Assembly (NCBI RefSeq): GCF_965641715.1
Contig: NZ_OZ282453.1
DNA: 64,000 nt
Origin: Escherichia coli
Lineage (GTDB): Bacteria > Pseudomonadota > Gammaproteobacteria > Enterobacterales > Enterobacteriaceae
Direction: 5' to 3' (one strand)
Positions 12,633 through 31,957 of this stretch are shown here, piece after piece. Within the stretch, counting starts at the first letter, position 1. Every line of letters starts with the position of its first letter. The notes below the pieces were generated by a model. It searched no databases and was not told the DNA's origin. It saw only the letters and a list, made by a program, of their open reading frames with translations. Position numbers and translations under genes: made by a program.

Positions 12633-13040
12633 TTATTGATGCTTGTTGCGTTTGCGAGCCTCTAATAGCTCGGTGAACAGGCGATTAAAATTCTCAACGC
12701 GGGCGCGGAGTTCGCTGAGTTGTGCTTGTTGCTCTGATTTAGGAAGTGCGCGATACAAACGCAGCATCTCTAACTCATCTTCCGATAAGTCTAAGGCACT
12801 ATCGAGTGAAACAGGGGGAGCTGGTGTTTTGTCCTCGTCGCCAAACAGTATCCAGGTTGGTGAACATTGCAATACCTCGGCGAGGCGATGCAAATTTTGC
12901 CCGCGCGGGGCTGTATGGTCACTTTCCCATAATGAAATTGATGAGCCAGATACGCCAGCAGCTTTGCTTAAACCGTTTTGACTTAAGCCTACCTGCTTAC
13001 GTCTTTCTCTAATGCGTTGACCTAAAGTTTTCTCGTTCAT
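12633..13040 (-). CDS. dicA: DicA-like HTH (XRE family) repressor
   Basis: MNEKTLGQRIRERRKQVGLSQNGLSKAAGVSGSSISLWESDHTAPRGQNLHRLAEVLQCSPTWILFGDEDK...; strong resemblance to DicA. Confidence 0.85.
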   Translation of the reverse strand: MNEKTLGQRIRERRKQVGLSQNGLSKAAGVSGSSISLWESDHTAPRGQNLHRLAEVLQCSPTWILFGDEDKTPAPPVSLDSALDLSEDELEMLRLYRALPKSEQQAQLSELRARVENFNRLFTELLEARKRNKHQ

Positions 13041-13117
13041 ATTTAGATATCTTAATAACCCTTGACTTGAGATTCCTTGAGTGATTAGCATTGAGAAAAC
13101 TCAATATTGGAGGTGCG
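13041..13117. promoter_or_regulatory. Divergent promoter/operator region between dicA-like and dicC-like genes
   Basis: 77-bp intergenic region with TTGACT (13062..13067) and 16-bp palindrome attgagaaaactcaat (13090..13105) just upstream of the dicC-like RBS. Confidence 0.5.
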
Positions 13118-13345
13118 ATGTTTAAATCAGACGTAATTAATTTTTACGGTACGAAAGCCAAAGTAGCGAAAGCTGCTGGCGTTGACCCATCTGCTGTTTC
13201 TCAATGGCAAGAGCTGGTTCCTGAAGGTCGCGCGATGCGTCTACAGGAGGCATCTGGCGGCGAGCTTCTGTATGATCCCAAGGTTTATGACGAATATCGT
13301 AAGACGAAGCGGGCGGGGCGGTTGAACAATGAAAATCACTCCTGA
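13118..13345 (+). CDS. dicC: DicC/Cro-like small regulator
   Basis: MFKSDVINFYGTKAKVAKAAGVDPSAVSQWQ...LVPEGRAMRLQEASGGELLYDPKVYDEYRK; divergent from dicA; GGAGG RBS. Confidence 0.7.
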   Translation: MFKSDVINFYGTKAKVAKAAGVDPSAVSQWQELVPEGRAMRLQEASGGELLYDPKVYDEYRKTKRAGRLNNENHS

Positions 13346-13850
13346 ACAGGCTCGTGAGGCTCTGGATGCCTGGATATGTCGACCAGGAATGACACAGGAG
13401 CAGGCGACGATATTAATCACTGAAGCATTCTGGGCTTTGAAAGAGCGCCCGAACATCGATGTTCAGCGTGTCACAGATGAAGGTGGCGCGGTTGATCAGC
13501 GAGCGCTTGGCGTTAATCGAGTGAAGATATTCGAACGCTGGAAGGCTATCGACACTAGGGATAAGCGTGAAAAGTTCACGGCGCTAGTGCCTGCAATTAT
13601 GGAGGCTATCCGGATTAATGATTTCAGGTTGTATCGTGAAATTAGTGACGGAAAAAGCATCACGTACATGATCGCCGGGTTAAACAAAGAATATGGCGAT
13701 GTGGTGGAGTCCGGACTGCTTTTTGCTGATCCTGCCGTAGTGGATCGTGAAACTGACGAACTTATAGAAAAAGCAATTGCTTTCAAACTTGCGTATCGAC
13801 AGCAATACCAACAAAAAGCTGGATGGAATTATGAGCCTTCTTTTTGCTGA
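13329..13850 (+). CDS. Hypothetical early-region protein (possibly YdaT/CII-like)
   Basis: 173-aa ORF downstream of cro-like gene; family not recognised with confidence. Confidence 0.45.
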   Translation: MKITPEQAREALDAWICRPGMTQEQATILITEAFWALKERPNIDVQRVTDEGGAVDQRALGVNRVKIFERWKAIDTRDKREKFTALVPAIMEAIRINDFRLYREISDGKSITYMIAGLNKEYGDVVESGLLFADPAVVDRETDELIEKAIAFKLAYRQQYQQKAGWNYEPSFC

Positions 13851-14796
13851 ACGCCCACTGGTTATAAACACACAGCTTGCGATGAAGATTGGCTTAAATG
13901 AAGCCATTGTGTTGCAGCAGTTGCATTACTGGTTGAGAGATACCAATTCCGGCATGGAATGTGATGGTGTTCGCTGGATTTACAACACAACGGAACAATG
14001 GCTGGAACAGTTCCCATTCTGGTCAGAGTCAACGTTAAAGCGCGCGTTTGCAAGTCTGAAAACGCTGGGGCTTTTGCGTTGTGAAAAGCTCAATAAATCA
14101 AAGCGCGATATGACCAATTTCTACACGATCAACTACGGGAGCGAGCTTTTAGATGGTGGCAAATTGAGCGAATCCATCGGTTTAAAATGCGCCGCTCCAT
14201 CAGGTCAAAATGACACGATGGAAGAGGTCAAAATGAAACGCTCCATTGGTTCAAAACGACCCAATGTCATCGGGTCAAAATGGCCTGATGATCTTACAGA
14301 GAATACAACAGAGATTACTACAGAGAATAAAAACACTTTTCGTCCGGAAGCTTCGCAACCGGACCCGCAGACCGCTGAACAGGATTTTTTAACCCGGAAC
14401 CCCGACGCGGTTGTGTTTAGTGCGAAAAAACGCCAGTGGGGTAGCAGGGAGGATTTGGCGTGTGCGCAGTGGATTTGGGGGCGGATCGTGAACCTTTACG
14501 AACAGGCTGCCAGCGACGATGGAGAGATCATGCGACCAAAAGAGCCTAACTGGACAGCCTGGGCCAATGACGTGCGCACAATGCGGATGCTGGATGGCAG
14601 AAGCCACAGACAAATTTGCGAAATGTTTGGTCGGGTACAGCGAGATCAATTCTGGGTAAAAAACATCATGAGCCCGTCAAAACTCCGCGAAAAATGGGAC
14701 GAACTGGTCATCCGCCTGGGACGTTCACCTGTACAGCGTTGTATGAATCATATTTCTGAACCGGATACAGAAATTCCGCCTGGTTTCAGAGGATAA
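13831..14796 (+). CDS. Phage replication protein with DnaT-like C-terminal domain
   Basis: ORF 13777..14796; start at ATG 13831 (MSLLFAERP); C-terminus ...NHISEPDTEIPPGFRG resembles the DnaT C-terminus (...VSEPDSQIPPGFRG); gene contains iterons. Confidence 0.65.
   Translation: MSLLFAERPLVINTQLAMKIGLNEAIVLQQLHYWLRDTNSGMECDGVRWIYNTTEQWLEQFPFWSESTLKRAFASLKTLGLLRCEKLNKSKRDMTNFYTINYGSELLDGGKLSESIGLKCAAPSGQNDTMEEVKMKRSIGSKRPNVIGSKWPDDLTENTTEITTENKNTFRPEASQPDPQTAEQDFLTRNPDAVVFSAKKRQWGSREDLACAQWIWGRIVNLYEQAASDDGEIMRPKEPNWTAWANDVRTMRMLDGRSHRQICEMFGRVQRDQFWVKNIMSPSKLREKWDELVIRLGRSPVQRCMNHISEPDTEIPPGFRG
14180..14340. repeat. Putative replication origin: iterons plus AT-rich tract inside the replication gene
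   Basis: ggtcaaaatg at 14203, 14226, 14273 and degenerate copies (ggtttaaaatg 14180, ggttcaaaacg 14248) at ~22-23 bp spacing, followed by AT-rich 14285..14340. Confidence 0.55.
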
Positions 14797-14836
14797 GTTT
14801 TGATTTCAGGTCATGAGGTAATTTTAAGGGGGACTT

Positions 14837-15238
14837 GTGGCAAAAGTTTTTACACAAGAAGAGCGGGAAAAAATTAAAGGGCAGGTGGTGGAACTCGTGC
14901 GCCAGAGCGGTCGTGAGACGTTACGGCAACTGGAAGCTAAAACAGGTGCGACTAGATATCTGATGAGCGTTCTTGCCAGAGAGCTGGTAGCCAGTGGCGA
15001 TGTATACAACTCCGGCTACGGGTTATTCCCGTCTGAACAGGCGCGTAAGGACTGGCAAAACGCCCGCAAAAAACTATCGAGGGCAAAGGTGAAGAAAACA
15101 GCTGTGGTTGATCCGGACCTTATCTGGTCGTTACCTGATGGAGAAATACGTCGCTACGACAGTCGCCTAAACATAATCTGTCGCGAGTGCCGGATGAGTG
15201 AAGTTATGCAGCGCATACTGGCATTTTATCAGGGATAA
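14837..15238 (+). CDS. Hypothetical protein (133 aa), replication-module position
   Basis: ORF with no Walker motif; not a DnaC-type loader. Confidence 0.45.
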   Translation: MAKVFTQEEREKIKGQVVELVRQSGRETLRQLEAKTGATRYLMSVLARELVASGDVYNSGYGLFPSEQARKDWQNARKKLSRAKVKKTAVVDPDLIWSLPDGEIRRYDSRLNIICRECRMSEVMQRILAFYQG

Positions 15239-15614
15239 TGTTAGGTATTTTAGACGTTACTAGATTAAAAAGCATTAGTTCAGGAGTGAATTGACATTCT
15301 CATTTTTCATGGCACAGGGTAGATCTGGCGTGGTTGTCCGCTTTGTGCCAAGAGCGGACGTTGGTATGCAAGAGCCCTCCAAAAGTTGATGGTTGGTTTG
15401 CAGGGGGGCTTAAAGAAACTGCACTTATCAAGTTGAAGTTCTGTATTCAGCGAAATCGTAGCACTCTGACGATAAGTAACTCCGGTACTCCGCTCTTCGA
15501 TGAAGAACCAGAGTAATCCCCCCGAAAAACCAGCGCATCAAAATTGGATCTTCAGCGGTAGCTTATCGGCTATCGGAAGTACAGGTGTGGATTCGTGGTG
15601 AATTGCTTTGATAA

Positions 15615-15672: not shown

Positions 15673-17022
15673 TTATTCCGTTTTACATATCATAGTAGTC
15701 GATTGGAGAATATAGTTTCTGGGAATGTACTCTTCAAAGTGTTCGTCCTTTTTAAATACATGAACTACATTTGGGAATAATTGATAGTCAACAGGGTGTA
15801 TAGCGTTTGGATTATGGTACATGTACATGGCTGTACACCATGGTTCTTGATAGTTAGGGTCACTTACATCGGCTGAAAATGGATGTGGGGCTGCATCCTG
15901 ATCAGTTTTAACACCACTGACGTACACTTTGAATCCACTCGCCTCTACACCTGCAAGAATTCCCATCCGGTTAAACTTAGGTATGGTTGCTTGAGTAGTG
16001 AGTAAAACGGCAGAAACATAATTATTTTGTTCTGAGCCAAAAAAGTTCGACTTGATACTTCTATTTTCATCTGTATGTCTTTCAATAGAAATGCCTGACT
16101 CAATATCAATCCCGTACAAATAGCTATGCAAGGCTTCGCTTGAGAAGGCCATGGACATTCTTTTTGAATAATCCTGCATTGCTATGACAAATGGTTTGTT
16201 CTTTGTATGGTTGAGTTCCCAGTAATGAACTTTCTCTGGCTCAGGGCAATGCCGGACTTTTTTTAATAAACTTCTTGCAAACTTAAAAGGCATGACATTT
16301 AGAACATGTTTTCTTAATTCATCCATCTGTTCATCGTTAATGACTTTTCTTTCAAGAGGGGCTTCTGCTTCAGCAATGCTTACAGCCTCTACAGCAATTT
16401 CCACTCCAAATTTAGATAGCAGAAAATCTGGTTGATTGTATTCTCTATTCATTTCAAAGTCGAGTTCATAAAATACAGCGTTCAAATATAATTCAAATAA
16501 CCTTGAATTAAATGCATCACTTTGAAAATCCCTTATAAATATTCCATCAGGATCTTTGAACCAGTATGCAAGTTCCTCAAGAACAATATATGCAGGGAAA
16601 TGAGGAGGGTCTTCGAGGAGCATTTTTATATAAACATTCCTTTTTTTCTCTGGGACTTTACTCAAGAATAATGAAAAAGGTTTGGTTGATTCATCGCCTT
16701 GCATGAATGTACCATTTTGGTGCTGCGCCAGCATCTTTGGTATGTCATCGTTCAAATTATTAAGCAAGACATCCATTGAATCAAATGAAGCCAAGACGTT
16801 TATTGCTCTGAATTTTTTATCTAAATCCCGACCTAAGACTATTGCGTTAAAATCTTTATCAATATTGCATATGATTATTGTGGATAACAATGTTATCCCA
16901 TTCCCCTCATATTTAAACCAGCGTATCTCCTCAGAAAATGTCTTAAGGTAAGGTGAGCGACCGTAAAAATAAATATCAAATTGTTCTTTGCTGATCTCAC
17001 TGAAGTGTAATCCTGCGTTCAT
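15673..17022 (-). CDS. Orphan 449-aa protein of unknown function (candidate accessory/defence gene)
   Basis: Single long ORF on the opposite strand to flanking phage genes, AAAGGA RBS, visibly AT-rich, flanked by ~430 and ~440 bp of non-coding DNA; no Walker A, no family recognised. Confidence 0.75.
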   Translation of the reverse strand: MNAGLHFSEISKEQFDIYFYGRSPYLKTFSEEIRWFKYEGNGITLLSTIIICNIDKDFNAIVLGRDLDKKFRAINVLASFDSMDVLLNNLNDDIPKMLAQHQNGTFMQGDESTKPFSLFLSKVPEKKRNVYIKMLLEDPPHFPAYIVLEELAYWFKDPDGIFIRDFQSDAFNSRLFELYLNAVFYELDFEMNREYNQPDFLLSKFGVEIAVEAVSIAEAEAPLERKVINDEQMDELRKHVLNVMPFKFARSLLKKVRHCPEPEKVHYWELNHTKNKPFVIAMQDYSKRMSMAFSSEALHSYLYGIDIESGISIERHTDENRSIKSNFFGSEQNNYVSAVLLTTQATIPKFNRMGILAGVEASGFKVYVSGVKTDQDAAPHPFSADVSDPNYQEPWCTAMYMYHNPNAIHPVDYQLFPNVVHVFKKDEHFEEYIPRNYILQSTTMICKTE

Positions 17023-17554: not shown

Positions 17555-17765
17555 TTTCACATTGGCGAGGTAACGGTAGTTAAGTAGAATGGCTGCGGGT
17601 GCTTGAGGCTATCTGCCTCGGGCATGAACACCAACGGCAGATAGAGAAAAGCCCCAGTTAACATTACGCGTCCTGCAAGACGCTTAACATTAATCTGAGG
17701 CCAATTTCATGCTAGACACATGTAGGTTAGCCTCTTACGTGCCGAAAGGCAAGGAGAAGCAGGCT

Positions 17766-17921
17766 ATGAAGCAGCAAAAGGCGATGTTAATCGCCCTGAT
17801 CGTCATCTGTTTAACCGTCATAGTGACGGCACTGGTAACGAGGAAAGACCTCTGCGAGGTACGAATCCGAACCGGGCAGACGGAGGTCGCTGTCTTCACA
17901 GCTTACGAACCTGAGGAGTAA
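17766..17921 (+). CDS. hokD: Hok-family type I toxin (HokD/RelF-like)
   Basis: MKQQKAMLIALIVICLTVIVTALVTRKDLCEVRIRTGQTEVAVFTAYEPEE; AAGGAG RBS; ORF track shows in-frame upstream extension from 17709 (mok-like). Confidence 0.9.
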   Translation: MKQQKAMLIALIVICLTVIVTALVTRKDLCEVRIRTGQTEVAVFTAYEPEE

Positions 17922-30449: not shown

Positions 30450-31957
30450 TGGCAATTCTTGATGATGTGATTGGCGTTTTTTCACCAGGATGGAAAGCGG
30501 CAAGGCTGCGTTCCCGTGCGGTGATCCAGGCTTATGAGGCCGTAAAAACGACACGGACACACAAAGCCCGGCGGGAAAACCGAACTGCCGACCAGTTAAG
30601 CCAGTACGGGGCCGTGTCGTTACGTGAGCAGGCCCGTTACCTTGATAACAACCACGATCTGGTTATTGGTGTATTTGACAAGCTGGAAGAACGGGTGGTG
30701 GGGAAAAACGGGATTATTGTCGAGCCACATCCGGTATTACGCAATGGGGCCATTGCCCGTGATCTGGCAGCGGAGATACGCACCCGATGGAGTGAATGGT
30801 CTGTCAGTCCGGAAGTCACCGGGCAGTTTACCCGTCCGATGCTGGAACGTCTGATGCTGCGTACCTGGCTGCGCGATGGTGAGGTGTTTGCCCAGATGGT
30901 TTCCGGGCGCATAAACAGCCTGACGCCTTCTGCCGGTGTTCATTTCTGGCTGGAGGCGCTCGAGCCGGACTTTATTCCCATGACCAGTGATGAGAGCAAC
31001 AGGCTGAATCAGGGCGTGTTTGTTGATGACTGGGGGCGTCCCGAAAAATATCTGGTGTATAAAAGCCGTCCCGTATCCGGGCGGCAGATGGAAACCAAAG
31101 AAGTGGATGCAGAGCGAATGCTGCATCTTAAATTTGTTCGCCGTCTGCACCAGATGCGCGGGACGTCTTTGTTGTCCGGTGTGCTGATCCGCCTCAGTGC
31201 CCTGAAAGAGTATGAAGATTCTGAGCTGACTGCAGCAAGGATCGCCGCTGCTCTGGGGATGTACATCCGGAAAGGCGACGGGCAGAGCTATGAACCGGAT
31301 GGTAATGGCAGCAAGGAGAATGAACGCGAGCTTACCATTCAGCCAGGCATTATTTACGACGATCTGAAACCCGGCGAAGAAATCGGAATGGTGAAGTCGG
31401 ATCGTCCCAATCCTAACCTTGAAACTTTTCGTAATGGTCAGTTGCGTGCCGTGGCGGCGGGCAGTCGTCTGAGTTTTTCCAGTACGGCACGCAACTATAA
31501 CGGCACTTACAGCGCCCAGCGTCAGGAGCTGGTTGAATCCACTGATGGCTACCTGATCCTGCAGGACTGGTTTATTGGTGCCGTCACCCGCCCGATGTAT
31601 CGTGCCTGGCTGAAACAGGCTGTGGCATCCGGTGTTATCAGGCTACCTCGCGATCTTGACCGTTCTTCACTGTATACCGCGGTGTATTCCGGACCGGTGA
31701 TGCCGTGGATTGACCCTGTTAAGGAGGCTGAGGCCTGGAAAATTCAGATTCGTGGTGGAGCGGCGACAGAATCAGACTGGGTACGTGCAGGTGGTCGTAA
31801 TCCGGATGATGTCAAACGTCGGCGCAAGGCCGAAATTGATGAAAACCGCAAGCTGGATCTGGTATTTGATACCGATCCGGCCAGTGATAAAGGAGGCAGC
31901 AGTGCCGCAACGAAACGACAGGAGCCGCAGCACACCGACGACCAGTCCGAAGAATAA
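30449..31957 (+). CDS. Portal protein (lambda gpB family)
   Basis: ORF 30377..31957; start at ATG 30449 (MAILDDVIGVF); position and size. Confidence 0.85.
   Translation: MAILDDVIGVFSPGWKAARLRSRAVIQAYEAVKTTRTHKARRENRTADQLSQYGAVSLREQARYLDNNHDLVIGVFDKLEERVVGKNGIIVEPHPVLRNGAIARDLAAEIRTRWSEWSVSPEVTGQFTRPMLERLMLRTWLRDGEVFAQMVSGRINSLTPSAGVHFWLEALEPDFIPMTSDESNRLNQGVFVDDWGRPEKYLVYKSRPVSGRQMETKEVDAERMLHLKFVRRLHQMRGTSLLSGVLIRLSALKEYEDSELTAARIAAALGMYIRKGDGQSYEPDGNGSKENERELTIQPGIIYDDLKPGEEIGMVKSDRPNPNLETFRNGQLRAVAAGSRLSFSSTARNYNGTYSAQRQELVESTDGYLILQDWFIGAVTRPMYRAWLKQAVASGVIRLPRDLDRSSLYTAVYSGPVMPWIDPVKEAEAWKIQIRGGAATESDWVRAGGRNPDDVKRRRKAEIDENRKLDLVFDTDPASDKGGSSAATKRQEPQHTDDQSEE

What the first reader, a model, noticed from the sequence alone, without database searches (positions are those of the whole stretch)
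14180..14340. Replication origin iterons embedded in a replication gene with a DnaT-like C-terminus
Several copies of GGTCAAAATG spaced ~22-23 bp apart, followed by an AT-rich tract, lie inside the 339-aa replication gene, whose C-terminus ends ...EPDTEIPPGFRG like host primosomal protein DnaT. No DnaC/P-type helicase loader is evident downstream. This suggests an initiator that recruits the host PriA/DnaT-type restart primosome rather than a lambda O/P system.
Basis: partly seen in the sequence, partly recalled or inferred. Interest (0 to 1): 0.4.

Follow-up and report, generated by a model that had tools for sequence, protein, structure and literature searches.

The report
Phage origin, DnaT-tailed initiator, no loader
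This is a lambda-style phage replication origin sitting inside its own initiator gene, ordinary in layout, but the initiator ends in the same 13-residue tail as the host restart protein DnaT, a tail that across hundreds of phage and host loci always goes with a DnaC-type helicase loader, which hints at how both proteins recruit the host helicase.

Summary
Five phased iterons (core GGTYAAAAYG, spacing 23/23/23/24 bp, 14174-14290) and a 70% A+T tract of three 12-bp repeats (14291-14336) lie inside an O-like initiator gene. That gene is 13831-14796, 321 aa from the ATG rather than 339 aa. Its last 13 residues, SEPDTEIPPGFRG, match the E. coli DnaT C-terminus at 11 of 13 positions. No P, DnaC or DnaB homologue is present anywhere in the window.

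The resemblance to DnaT is confined to the tail. The C-domain is lambda-O type (34% identity, E 3e-28) and unrelated to the DnaT C-terminal domain (hhalign probability 0.1%).

The new result is comparative:
- 78 of 80 viral loci seeded with DnaC-like loaders have an upstream initiator ending PDxxIPxGFRG.
- 0 of 80 loci seeded with lambda-P-like loaders do; 79 of those end in a lambda-O-type ..DWIxGV.. tail.
- 79 of 80 enterobacterial dnaC genes follow a dnaT with this tail.
- A 72%-identical relative carrying the lambda-type tail has P.
- AlphaFold2 fusion models place each tail confidently only on its cognate loader.

Best reading: the tail docks a DnaC-type loader, and this loaderless phage uses host DnaB-DnaC directly. 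The junction occurs in about 35% of complete E. coli genomes.

The parts
13831..14796 (+).
   Evidence: PHROG phrog_391 'replication initiation O-like', 1e-92, full length. Annotated 'Primosomal protein I' or 'replication initiation O-like protein' in phages mEp460_ev081, HannyBb and PhiR42_1. No Pfam or NCBIfam hit. RefSeq calls it 'hypothetical protein'.
13831..14145 (+). Coding region for the N-terminal domain (aa 1-105), the presumed iteron-binding domain
   Evidence: Strongly conserved among relatives of 68-100% identity that keep the same iterons. Matches the N-terminal parts of PHROG initiator families 6493, 428 and 11233. Initiator families with other N-domains carry different iterons. 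DNA binding itself is inferred.
14174..14290 (+). Iteron array: five 23-24-bp units with cores GGTTTAAAATG, GGTCAAAATG, GGTCAAAATG, GGTTCAAAACG, GGTCAAAATG, each an imperfect palindrome
   Evidence: 5 hits in 110 bp against at most 2 in 200 simulations. Conserved with 6 copies in 68-72% relatives L072 and L084.
14291..14336 (+). A+T-rich tract (70% A+T) of three 12-bp repeats (TACAGAGAATAC-like), the presumed unwinding element
   Evidence: Copy number varies from 3 to 5 among relatives. The unwinding role is inferred by analogy with ori-lambda.
14146..14385 (+). Linker-coding part of the gene (aa 106-185) that carries the origin
   Evidence: The region tolerates in-frame indels: 290-aa variants lack exactly 31 aa, equal to four iteron periods, and repeat copy number varies. 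The lambda origin lies at the equivalent place in O.
14386..14730 (+). Lambda-O-type C-terminal domain (aa 186-300)
   Evidence: BLASTP against lambda O aa 135-270: 34% identity, E 3e-28. No relation to the DnaT C-terminal domain (hhalign probability 0.1%). No solved homologue.
14755..14793 (+). DnaT-type C-terminal tail SEPDTEIPPGFRG (motif PDxxIPxGFRG), the proposed docking motif for DnaC-type loaders
   Evidence: Coupling to DnaC-type loaders. AlphaFold2 fusion pLDDT 84. Synonymous codon variation shows selection at the protein level.
14797..14836 (+). 40-nt spacer where relatives carry a loader gene (DnaC-like, usually with DUF1627, or lambda-P-like)
   Evidence: Its 3' part weakly resembles the last codons of a P gene plus the spacer before DUF977 in L084.
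14837..15238 (+). DUF977 / LygF / Ren-like gene, present after all three module types and so not a loader substitute
   Evidence: Pfam DUF977 6e-27. PHROG 142 'Ren-like exclusion protein'. Found after P in L084 and after DnaC-like plus DUF1627 in L030.
13329..13850 (+). cII-like / YdaT-family gene immediately upstream, overlapping the initiator start by 20 nt
   Evidence: Pfam YdaT_toxin 1.2e-5. PHROG 163 'CII-like transcriptional activator' 2.3e-40.
12633..13345 (.). Immunity region: CI-type repressor (12633-13091, minus strand) and Cro-like gene (13118-13345, plus strand), from which rightward transcription enters the origin
   Evidence: Pfam HTH_3 and P22_Cro; annotation of L001. The role of transcription at the origin is inferred from lambda.

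Best explanation
The region is a lambda-type origin of replication carried inside the gene for its own initiator.

Proposed mechanism:
1. The initiator's N-terminal domain binds the five palindromic iterons as dimers. The neighbouring A+T-rich repeats then melt. This step is inferred by analogy with ori-lambda.
2. The initiator has a lambda-O-type C-domain. It does not end in the lambda-O tail (..TDWIYGVDL), which goes with loader P. It ends instead in the tail of host DnaT (PDxxIPxGFRG).
3. That tail is a short, transferable docking motif for DnaC-type AAA+ helicase loaders.
4. Close relatives encode their own DnaC paralogue right after the initiator. This phage has none, so the iteron-bound initiator presents several DnaT-type tails that recruit the host DnaB6-DnaC6 complex directly to the melted origin, without PriA, PriB or DnaT.

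Shown here: the origin anatomy, the domain homologies, the absence of a loader, the strict tail-loader coupling, and the specificity of the AlphaFold2 models. Inferred: physical tail-DnaC binding and origin function.
For: Origin anatomy and conservation. The lambda origin sits at the same place in O.

C-domain: homologous to lambda O.

Natural swap: relative P0034/L084 has 72% identity and the same cI-cro-ydaT context. It ends DWNSADGWEDVL and is followed by Phage_lambda_P. All 80 tail-bearing relatives (L004-L083) have either a DnaC-like gene 7 nt downstream or no loader, and never P.

Reverse test: loci seeded by DnaC-like loaders have the tail upstream in 78 of 80 cases. Loci seeded by P-like loaders have it in 0 of 80, and 79 of those carry lambda-type tails. 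Fisher p = 7e-44, though the loci are not phylogenetically independent.

Modularity: the same initiator N- and C-domain families occur with both tail types, so the tail follows the loader rather than the initiator.

Host and Rac prophage: dnaT is directly followed by dnaC in 79 of 80 enterobacterial species, with the tail conserved. Rac ydaU, an unrelated DUF1376 initiator, ends VNTVSLPDSAIPPGFRG and lies 7 nt before the DnaC paralogue ydaV.

Non-redundant tally: of 234 tail-bearing genes, 162 are followed by a DnaC-type gene and none by P. The variable residue x covaries with loader subfamily.

Selection level: synonymous codon variety at I, P, G and F shows selection on the protein.

AlphaFold2 fusions:
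- DnaC-linker-lambda tail-linker-window tail gives pLDDT 84 for the last 9 residues and about 30 for the lambda tail.
- Lambda P-linker-window tail-linker-lambda tail gives 68-74 for the lambda tail and about 40-45 for the DnaT-type tail.

Viability of the loaderless module: it occurs in phage genome records HannyBb and mEp460_ev081, and the junction occurs in 1919 of 5426 complete E. coli genomes.

[quoted passage not shown] The modelled DnaT-PriA interface uses residues 84-153, leaving the tail free.
Against: - No binding experiment exists, and origin function was not tested.
- The tail is adjacent to the loader gene, so coupling could partly reflect linkage. The last two codons (mostly AGG GGG) double as the Shine-Dalgarno sequence of the downstream dnaC-like gene.
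- In both AlphaFold2 constructs the cognate tail was the C-terminal one. Position and cognate identity are therefore confounded, and no contact map was available.
- The only published role for the last 18 residues of DnaT is in trimerisation (Szymanski 2013, cited in PMC5314882).
- Keck and colleagues propose the DnaT N-terminal domain as the DnaB/DnaC recruiter.
- The tail might bind DnaB or a composite DnaB-DnaC surface rather than DnaC alone.
Confidence: 0.6

Rival explanations
1. The DnaT-like tail recruits the host PriA-PriB-DnaT restart primosome to the phage origin, and that primosome then loads DnaB through DnaC.
For: The tail is shared with a primosome protein. No phage loader is present. 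DnaT does dock on PriA in the preprimosome (PMC13377028). Other elements, such as phiX174, pBR322 and Mu, use PriA-dependent loading (established knowledge).
Against: The protein lacks the DnaT parts that contact PriA and PriB: the C-terminal domain 84-153 and the acidic linker. A PriA-binding tail would compete with DnaT. It would also not explain why the tail is present in 78/80 initiators next to DnaC-like loaders and absent in 80/80 next to P, since P-type phages meet the same host PriA. AlphaFold2 docks the tail on DnaC.
Confidence: 0.13
2. The tail has no loader-docking role. Either it is a self-association element, as reported for DnaT trimerisation, or its conservation and coupling to dnaC-like genes come from DNA-level constraints. 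Those constraints would be the ribosome-binding site and translational coupling of the downstream gene, or a recombination joint that moves the tail together with the loader as one block.
For: Removing the last 18 residues of DnaT changes trimer to dimer. The last two codons are mostly AGG GGG, forming a Shine-Dalgarno sequence 0-7 nt before the dnaC-like start. Some 358-362-aa proteins share only the last ~20 residues and the downstream DNA with the window, which indicates recombination joints inside the 3' end of the gene.
Against: I, P, G and F are invariant while using all synonymous codons. The tail persists in loaderless modules where no gene starts within 40 nt. It sits on at least three unrelated C-domains, which would each need a matching self-docking site. 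AlphaFold2 gives loader-specific confidence. The parallel lambda-type tail/P coupling fits the genetically established interaction of P with the C-terminal part of O (my knowledge of lambda genetics, not checked here).
Confidence: 0.17
3. The module is a decayed remnant. The loader gene was lost, and the origin no longer fires on its own.
For: Close relatives carry a DnaC-like or P gene at this position. The spacer may retain a trace of a P gene's 3' end. Some relatives have lost four iterons.
Against: The identical module is in the phage genome records HannyBb (sample source 'bird poop', host E. coli) and mEp460_ev081. The gene is intact and conserved. The junction is present in 35% of complete E. 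coli genomes. Other unrelated initiator families also occur tail-bearing and loaderless.
Confidence: 0.05

Closest known systems
Bacteriophage lambda ori / O-P replication module
   Same: Both have iterons with dyad symmetry at about two-helical-turn phasing, followed by an A+T-rich tract, all inside the linker-coding part of the initiator gene. The C-terminal domain is homologous (34% identity, E 3e-28). Gene order is the same: repressor, cro, cII-like, initiator, Ren-like.
   Different: There is no P gene. The N-terminal domain and iteron sequence differ (no Pfam Phage_rep_O hit). The extreme C-terminus is DnaT-type (IPPGFRG) instead of the lambda type (TDWIYGVDL), which accompanied P in 79/80 loci.
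Lambdoid 'initiator + DnaC-type loader' modules, e.g. Rac prophage YdaU-YdaV
   Same: The C-terminal tail is the same (YdaU ends VNTVSLPDSAIPPGFRG). About half of the window protein's close relatives have a YdaV-like DnaC paralogue 7 nt downstream, followed by DUF1627 and DUF977.
   Different: The window phage has lost, or never had, the DnaC-like and DUF1627 genes. YdaU has an unrelated DUF1376 N-terminal part.
E. coli DnaT (primosomal protein i) and the dnaT-dnaC operon
   Same: The last 13 residues are 11/13 identical and lie at the exact C-terminus. In both cases a tail-bearing gene sits directly upstream of a DnaC-type loader, in the host and in relatives.
   Different: There is no DnaT N-terminal domain, no acidic PriB-binding linker and no three-helix C-terminal domain. 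The window protein is a sequence-specific origin binder, not a fork-restart adaptor.
DopC/DopE (domesticated lambda O/P-like pair; Brezellec et al. 2017, PMC5509034)
   Same: It is a precedent for an O-like N-terminal domain joined to a DnaT C-terminal motif.
   Different: DopC replaces the O C-domain with a DnaT C-terminal domain, is chromosomal, has no iterons, and is paired with a P-derived partner. Here the O C-domain is kept and only the tail is DnaT-like.

Membership tests
Lambda-type origin embedded in the initiator gene | Four or more phased direct repeats with internal dyad symmetry inside the initiator ORF | tested here: met
   Five units at 23-24 bp spacing, each an imperfect palindrome. 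The clustering exceeds all 200 simulations.
Lambda-type origin embedded in the initiator gene | A+T-rich unwinding tract immediately flanking the iterons | tested here: met
   14291-14336 is 70% A+T and is made of three 12-bp repeats.
Lambda-type origin embedded in the initiator gene | Iterons conserved in relatives and co-varying with the initiator's DNA-binding domain | tested here: met
   Relatives of 68-72% identity keep the same iterons. Families with other N-domains carry other iterons, for example ATCCCCGAAAAGGGGGA x7 and TTGACCCGTCAA x5.
Lambda-type origin embedded in the initiator gene | Drives autonomous replication when supplied with the initiator | not testable with these tools
   This needs cloning of 13831-14796 and a replication assay.
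Lambda O protein family | Homologous C-terminal domain | tested here: met
   BLASTP gives 34% identity, E 3e-28, over aa 147-294 against lambda O 135-270. PHROG 391, 'O-like', matches full length.
Lambda O protein family | Phage_rep_O-type N-terminal origin-binding domain | tested here: not met
   No Pfam hit at E <= 0.01. BLASTP shows no N-terminal similarity to lambda O.
Lambda O protein family | Works with a cognate P loader encoded immediately downstream | tested here: not met
   No P homologue in the window. The protein lacks the ..DWIxGV.. tail found upstream of 79/80 P genes.
DnaT (primosomal protein i) | C-terminal tail PDxxIPxGFRG | tested here: met
   11/13 identical to E. coli DnaT. 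The motif is conserved in 79/80 enterobacterial DnaT proteins.
DnaT (primosomal protein i) | Three-helix-bundle ssDNA-binding C-terminal domain (residues 84-153) | tested here: not met
   hhalign of the O C-domain profile against a DnaT C-terminal-domain profile gives probability 0.1%. The PDB phmmer match covers only the last 21 residues. The profiles are shallow, with 6 sequences each.
DnaT (primosomal protein i) | N-terminal oligomerisation domain and acidic PriB-binding linker | tested here: not met
   tblastn and phmmer with DnaT match only residues 160-179.
Initiator + DnaC-type loader replication module (YdaU/YdaV-like) | Initiator ends in PDxxIPxGFRG | tested here: met
Initiator + DnaC-type loader replication module (YdaU/YdaV-like) | IstB/DnaC-like AAA+ gene within about 10 nt downstream | tested here: not met
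   Absent from the window. Present in about half of the close relatives.

The most novel reading that the evidence does not exclude
The PDxxIPxGFRG tail is the missing element by which DnaT, and a large class of enterobacterial phage initiators, recruit DnaC-type loaders carrying DnaB. On this reading the host dnaT-dnaC operon and phage initiator-loader cassettes share one docking code, with a parallel ..DWIxGV.. code for lambda-P loaders. This very common E. coli prophage then fires a lambda-type origin with no phage loader at all, by mimicking DnaT's tail to capture host DnaB-DnaC.
Probability: 0.45. Interest if true: 0.8.

Novelty: new variant of a known kind. Interest (0 to 1): 0.6.

Why it matters
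The layout of an origin inside the initiator gene is textbook lambda biology. The tail is what matters.

How the PriA-PriB-DnaT preprimosome hands over to DnaB-DnaC is an open question. Papers from 2024 and 2026 state that no DnaC contact with PriA, PriB or DnaT has been shown. The comparative data here point to a specific 11-13-residue motif as the DnaC-side connector, and that can be tested with a peptide and two purified proteins.

The data also suggest a simple two-letter code that predicts loader dependence of lambdoid replication modules from sequence: IPxGFRG goes with DnaC-type loaders, and DWIxGV goes with P.

They explain how a module lacking any loader can be viable. They also give a function to a gene that RefSeq labels 'hypothetical protein' in about a third of complete E. 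coli genomes.

Tried and rejected
- Pfam and NCBIfam scans of the initiator gave no hit. Only PHROGs recognised it.
- Whole-domain homology with DnaT was rejected. A profile-profile comparison of the lambda-O-type C-domain with the DnaT C-terminal domain gave probability 0.1%, and a profile search of the PDB gave nothing.
- DUF977 as a substitute loader was rejected. It follows the P-type, DnaC-type and loaderless modules alike.
- Downstream ORFs of loaderless tail-bearing initiators were checked for helicases. By sequence resemblance they look like Dam methylase, PerC-like, ParB-like or small nuclease-like genes, not helicases or loaders. These particular ORFs were read by eye, not scanned; related ORFs had Pfam hits to Dam and PerC.
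- A full-text search for 'PPGFRG' found no paper. Searches for DnaT plus phage O, YdaU/YdaV, DnaT plus C-terminal tail, and mEp460 found nothing describing the tail-loader link.
- The text and supplement of the preprimosome paper do not name interface residues. The methods show that the C-terminal domain was fitted from residues 84-153.
The accepted pattern requires D at -3 from I, so it misses the ..DYSQIPAGFRG group.
- Not done: a full-length model of the initiator, order-swapped AlphaFold2 controls, and tails of initiators paired with DnaB-type helicases (P22 gp18/gp12 class).
Full report
**What is there**

Window 13000-15300 is 100% identical to Escherichia phage mEp460_ev081 and 98% identical to phage HannyBb. 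The local gene order is:
- CI-type repressor, 12633-13091, minus strand
- Cro-like gene
- cII-like / YdaT-family gene, 13329-13850
- the gene in question, 13831-14796
- a DUF977 / Ren-like gene, 14837-15238

All annotations and homologues start at the ATG at 13831, giving 321 aa.

**The repeats**

Five same-strand cores matching GGTYAAAAYG lie at 14180, 14203, 14226, 14249 and 14273, spaced 23, 23, 23 and 24 bp. Each core sits in an imperfect 23-bp palindrome, for example CATCagGTCAaaaTGACacGATG. That is what a dimeric initiator would bind.

The motif is not enriched in the window as a whole (25 hits against 18.8 expected). Five phased hits within 110 bp, however, were never approached in 200 Markov simulations, where the maximum was 2.

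Immediately after the array, 14291-14336 is 70% A+T and consists of three 12-bp repeats. Relatives at only 68-72% protein identity keep the array with six copies. They vary the number of 12-mers from 3 to 5. Initiator families with different N-terminal domains carry quite different iterons inside their own genes.

**The protein**

PHROG 391, 'replication initiation O-like', matches full length at 1e-92. Pfam and NCBIfam find nothing. RefSeq calls the gene hypothetical.

Residues 147-294 are homologous to lambda O residues 135-270 (34% identity, E 3e-28). The N-terminal 105 residues are a different DNA-binding domain. The iterons lie in the indel-tolerant linker between the two. Some relatives lack exactly 31 aa, which equals four iteron periods.

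Similarity to DnaT is confined to the end of the protein. phmmer against the PDB aligns only residues 301-321 with the last 21 residues of DnaT. The last 13 residues are 11/13 identical to E. coli DnaT. A profile of the lambda-O-type C-domain shows no relation to a profile of the DnaT C-terminal domain (hhalign probability 0.1%).

The protein is therefore not a DnaT family member. It is an O-like initiator carrying a DnaT-type tail.

**No loader**

tblastn with E. coli DnaC and DnaB, Rac YdaV, lambda P and a second P finds no credible match in the 64 kb. DUF977 is not a substitute, because it follows every module type.

**What the tail goes with**

Close relatives differ at the tail. P0034 is 72% identical, has the same neighbours, and ends ...DWNSADGWEDVL, much like lambda O's ...TNTDWIYGVDL. 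It is followed by a Phage_lambda_P gene.

All 80 viral loci of the window's family end IPxGFRG. About half go straight to DUF977 at +41 nt, as in the window. About half have a 246-248-aa IstB/DnaC-like AAA+ gene 7 nt downstream. None has P.

In E. coli K-12, dnaT is directly followed by dnaC. The unrelated Rac initiator YdaU (DUF1376) ends VNTVSLPDSAIPPGFRG and lies 7 nt before the DnaC paralogue YdaV.

A DNA-pattern scan for D-x-x-I-P-x-G-F-R-G-stop in viral contigs returned 80 listed loci.
- In 79 the motif was at an ORF end.
- The ORFs belonged to several different initiator families.
- In at least 42 a full-length DnaC-like gene lay just downstream.
- The remainder had no phage loader or a truncated DnaC-like ORF, and none had P or a helicase.

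**The reverse test**

I seeded loci by the loader instead of the tail.
- Of 80 viral loci found with a DnaC-like profile, 78 have an upstream initiator ending in the motif.
- Of 80 found with a lambda-P profile, none does. Of these, 79 end in ..DW[IA]xG[VL].. or ..HWNSPEGWExTL. Fisher p = 7e-44, with the caveat of shared ancestry.

After stripping the tails, the same N-terminal and C-terminal domain families contain members with both tail types. The tail therefore follows the loader and not the initiator, which implies repeated swaps.

In 80 species-representative Enterobacteriaceae and Hafnia genomes, 79 have a gene ending PDxxIPxGFRG directly upstream of dnaC. Eighteen of these carry a two-residue extension.

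Among 234 non-redundant tail-bearing genes, 162 precede a DnaC-type gene and none precedes P. The variable residue x tracks loader subfamily: P in 39/40 YdaV-type pairs, and S, T, A or N in 48/57 of another subfamily.

**DNA-level confound**

Across 113 distinct DNA versions, the I, P, G and F codons use the full synonymous range, so selection acts on the protein. The last two codons are mostly AGG GGG, which forms the ribosome-binding site of the downstream dnaC-like gene. Part of the conservation of the final R-G, and part of the linkage, may therefore act at the RNA level.

**Structure prediction**

Two AlphaFold2 runs used natural initiator-loader pairs as alignment rows.
- E. coli DnaC - linker - lambda-O tail - linker - window tail. 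The last nine residues reach pLDDT 84, with residue 328 in a beta-bridge. The lambda tail and the linkers stay near 30.
- Lambda P - linker - window tail - linker - lambda-O tail. The lambda tail reaches 68-74, and the DnaT-type tail stays near 40-45.

This reciprocal pattern fits cognate docking. In both constructs, however, the cognate tail was the C-terminal one, and coordinates could not be inspected. I treat the result as supportive, not decisive.

**Literature**

[quoted passage not shown] - In the preprimosome structures the DnaT C-terminal domain docked on PriA was fitted from the 84-153 crystal structure, so the tail is not part of the modelled interface.
- The only reported role of DnaT's last 18 residues is in trimerisation.
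- Brezellec et al. noted an O-like N-terminus fused to a DnaT C-terminal motif in DopC.
- I found no paper describing the tail-loader coupling. The searchable library is limited to open-access texts.

**Interpretation**

Most likely, at about 0.6, the tail is a portable docking motif for DnaC-type loaders. This phage encodes no loader and uses it to bring host DnaB-DnaC straight to its iteron-bound initiator.

The specific PriA/restart-primosome route is less likely, at about 0.13. The protein lacks every DnaT element known to touch PriA or PriB, and PriA binding would not explain loader-type specificity.

A non-docking explanation, meaning self-association or DNA-level linkage, keeps about 0.17. 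A decayed remnant is unlikely, at about 0.05. The same module is in the phage genome records HannyBb and mEp460_ev081, and the O/DUF977 junction occurs in 1919 of 5426 complete E. coli genomes.

**Novelty**

The origin itself is of a known kind. The loaderless O-like module with a DnaT-type tail, and the tail-loader code it revealed, amount to a new variant. It gives a directly testable handle on an open question in replication restart.

Noticed in passing
window 15673-17022 (minus strand): A 449-aa gene with no Pfam hit is a PD-T7-1 anti-phage defence protein (PADLOC 4.2e-157). It sits in the variable slot between DUF977 and the hok/mokW-like gene at 17709-17921.
   Followed up: partly
window 14174-14290; proteins P0015, P0017, P0018, P0021, P0022: 290-aa variants of the initiator lack exactly 31 aa. 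That equals 93 bp, or four iteron periods (23+23+23+24), so it is an in-frame iteron-mediated deletion that leaves one iteron.
   Followed up: partly
window 14295-14332; L039, L062: The copy number of the 12-bp repeat TACAGAGAATAC in the A+T-rich tract varies from 3 to 5 among close relatives. This adds TENT-like tetrapeptides to the linker.
   Followed up: partly
window 14797-14836: The 3' part of the spacer between the initiator and DUF977 (TCATGAGGTAATTTTAAGGGGGACTTGTG) weakly resembles the last codons of a lambda-P-type gene plus the spacer before DUF977 in L084. This hints that the loaderless form arose by recombination or deletion.
   Followed up: partly
window 14788-14796 and 113 related loci: The last two tail codons are mostly AGG GGG. 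AGG is rare in E. coli (my knowledge, not checked here). The codons form the Shine-Dalgarno sequence of the dnaC-like gene that starts 0-7 nt after the stop. Host dnaT ends TTCAGAGGGTAAcgATG, where the ATG starts dnaC.
   Followed up: yes
E. coli complete genomes: The initiator-3'-end/DUF977 junction (window 14560-15060) is present as one contiguous match in 1919 of 5426 complete E. coli genomes. RefSeq annotates the initiator as 'hypothetical protein'.
   Followed up: partly
L207-L286, L087-L166, L367-L446: The variable residue x in IPxGFRG covaries with loader subfamily. It is P with YdaV-type loaders (39/40) and S, T, A or N with a second DnaC-like subfamily (48/57). Host DnaT shows P, D, R, N and others. 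Eighteen host species extend the tail by AK or VK.
   Followed up: partly
L112, L131, L144, L146, L156, L127 and others: Initiators of 345-362 aa from an unrelated family share only the last ~20 residues and the downstream spacer plus DUF977 with the window. Recombination joints therefore lie inside the 3' end of the initiator gene.
   Followed up: partly
L287-L366 (upstream of lambda-P-like genes): Initiators paired with P end in a second conserved tail class..NTDW[IA]xG[VL].. or ..HWNSPEGWExTL. In an AlphaFold2 fusion with lambda P, the lambda-O tail reaches pLDDT 68-74. This suggests the O-P contact also uses a short C-terminal motif.
   Followed up: partly
window 31435-31605: Weak tblastn similarity to lambda P (29% over 58 aa, E 0.02). 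Probably chance, and not examined further.
   Followed up: no
proteins P0002-P0004: Gene calls of 448 aa combine a YdaT-family (PF06254) part with the O-like protein. Either the cII-like and initiator ORFs are fused in some genomes, or these are gene-calling artefacts.
   Followed up: no
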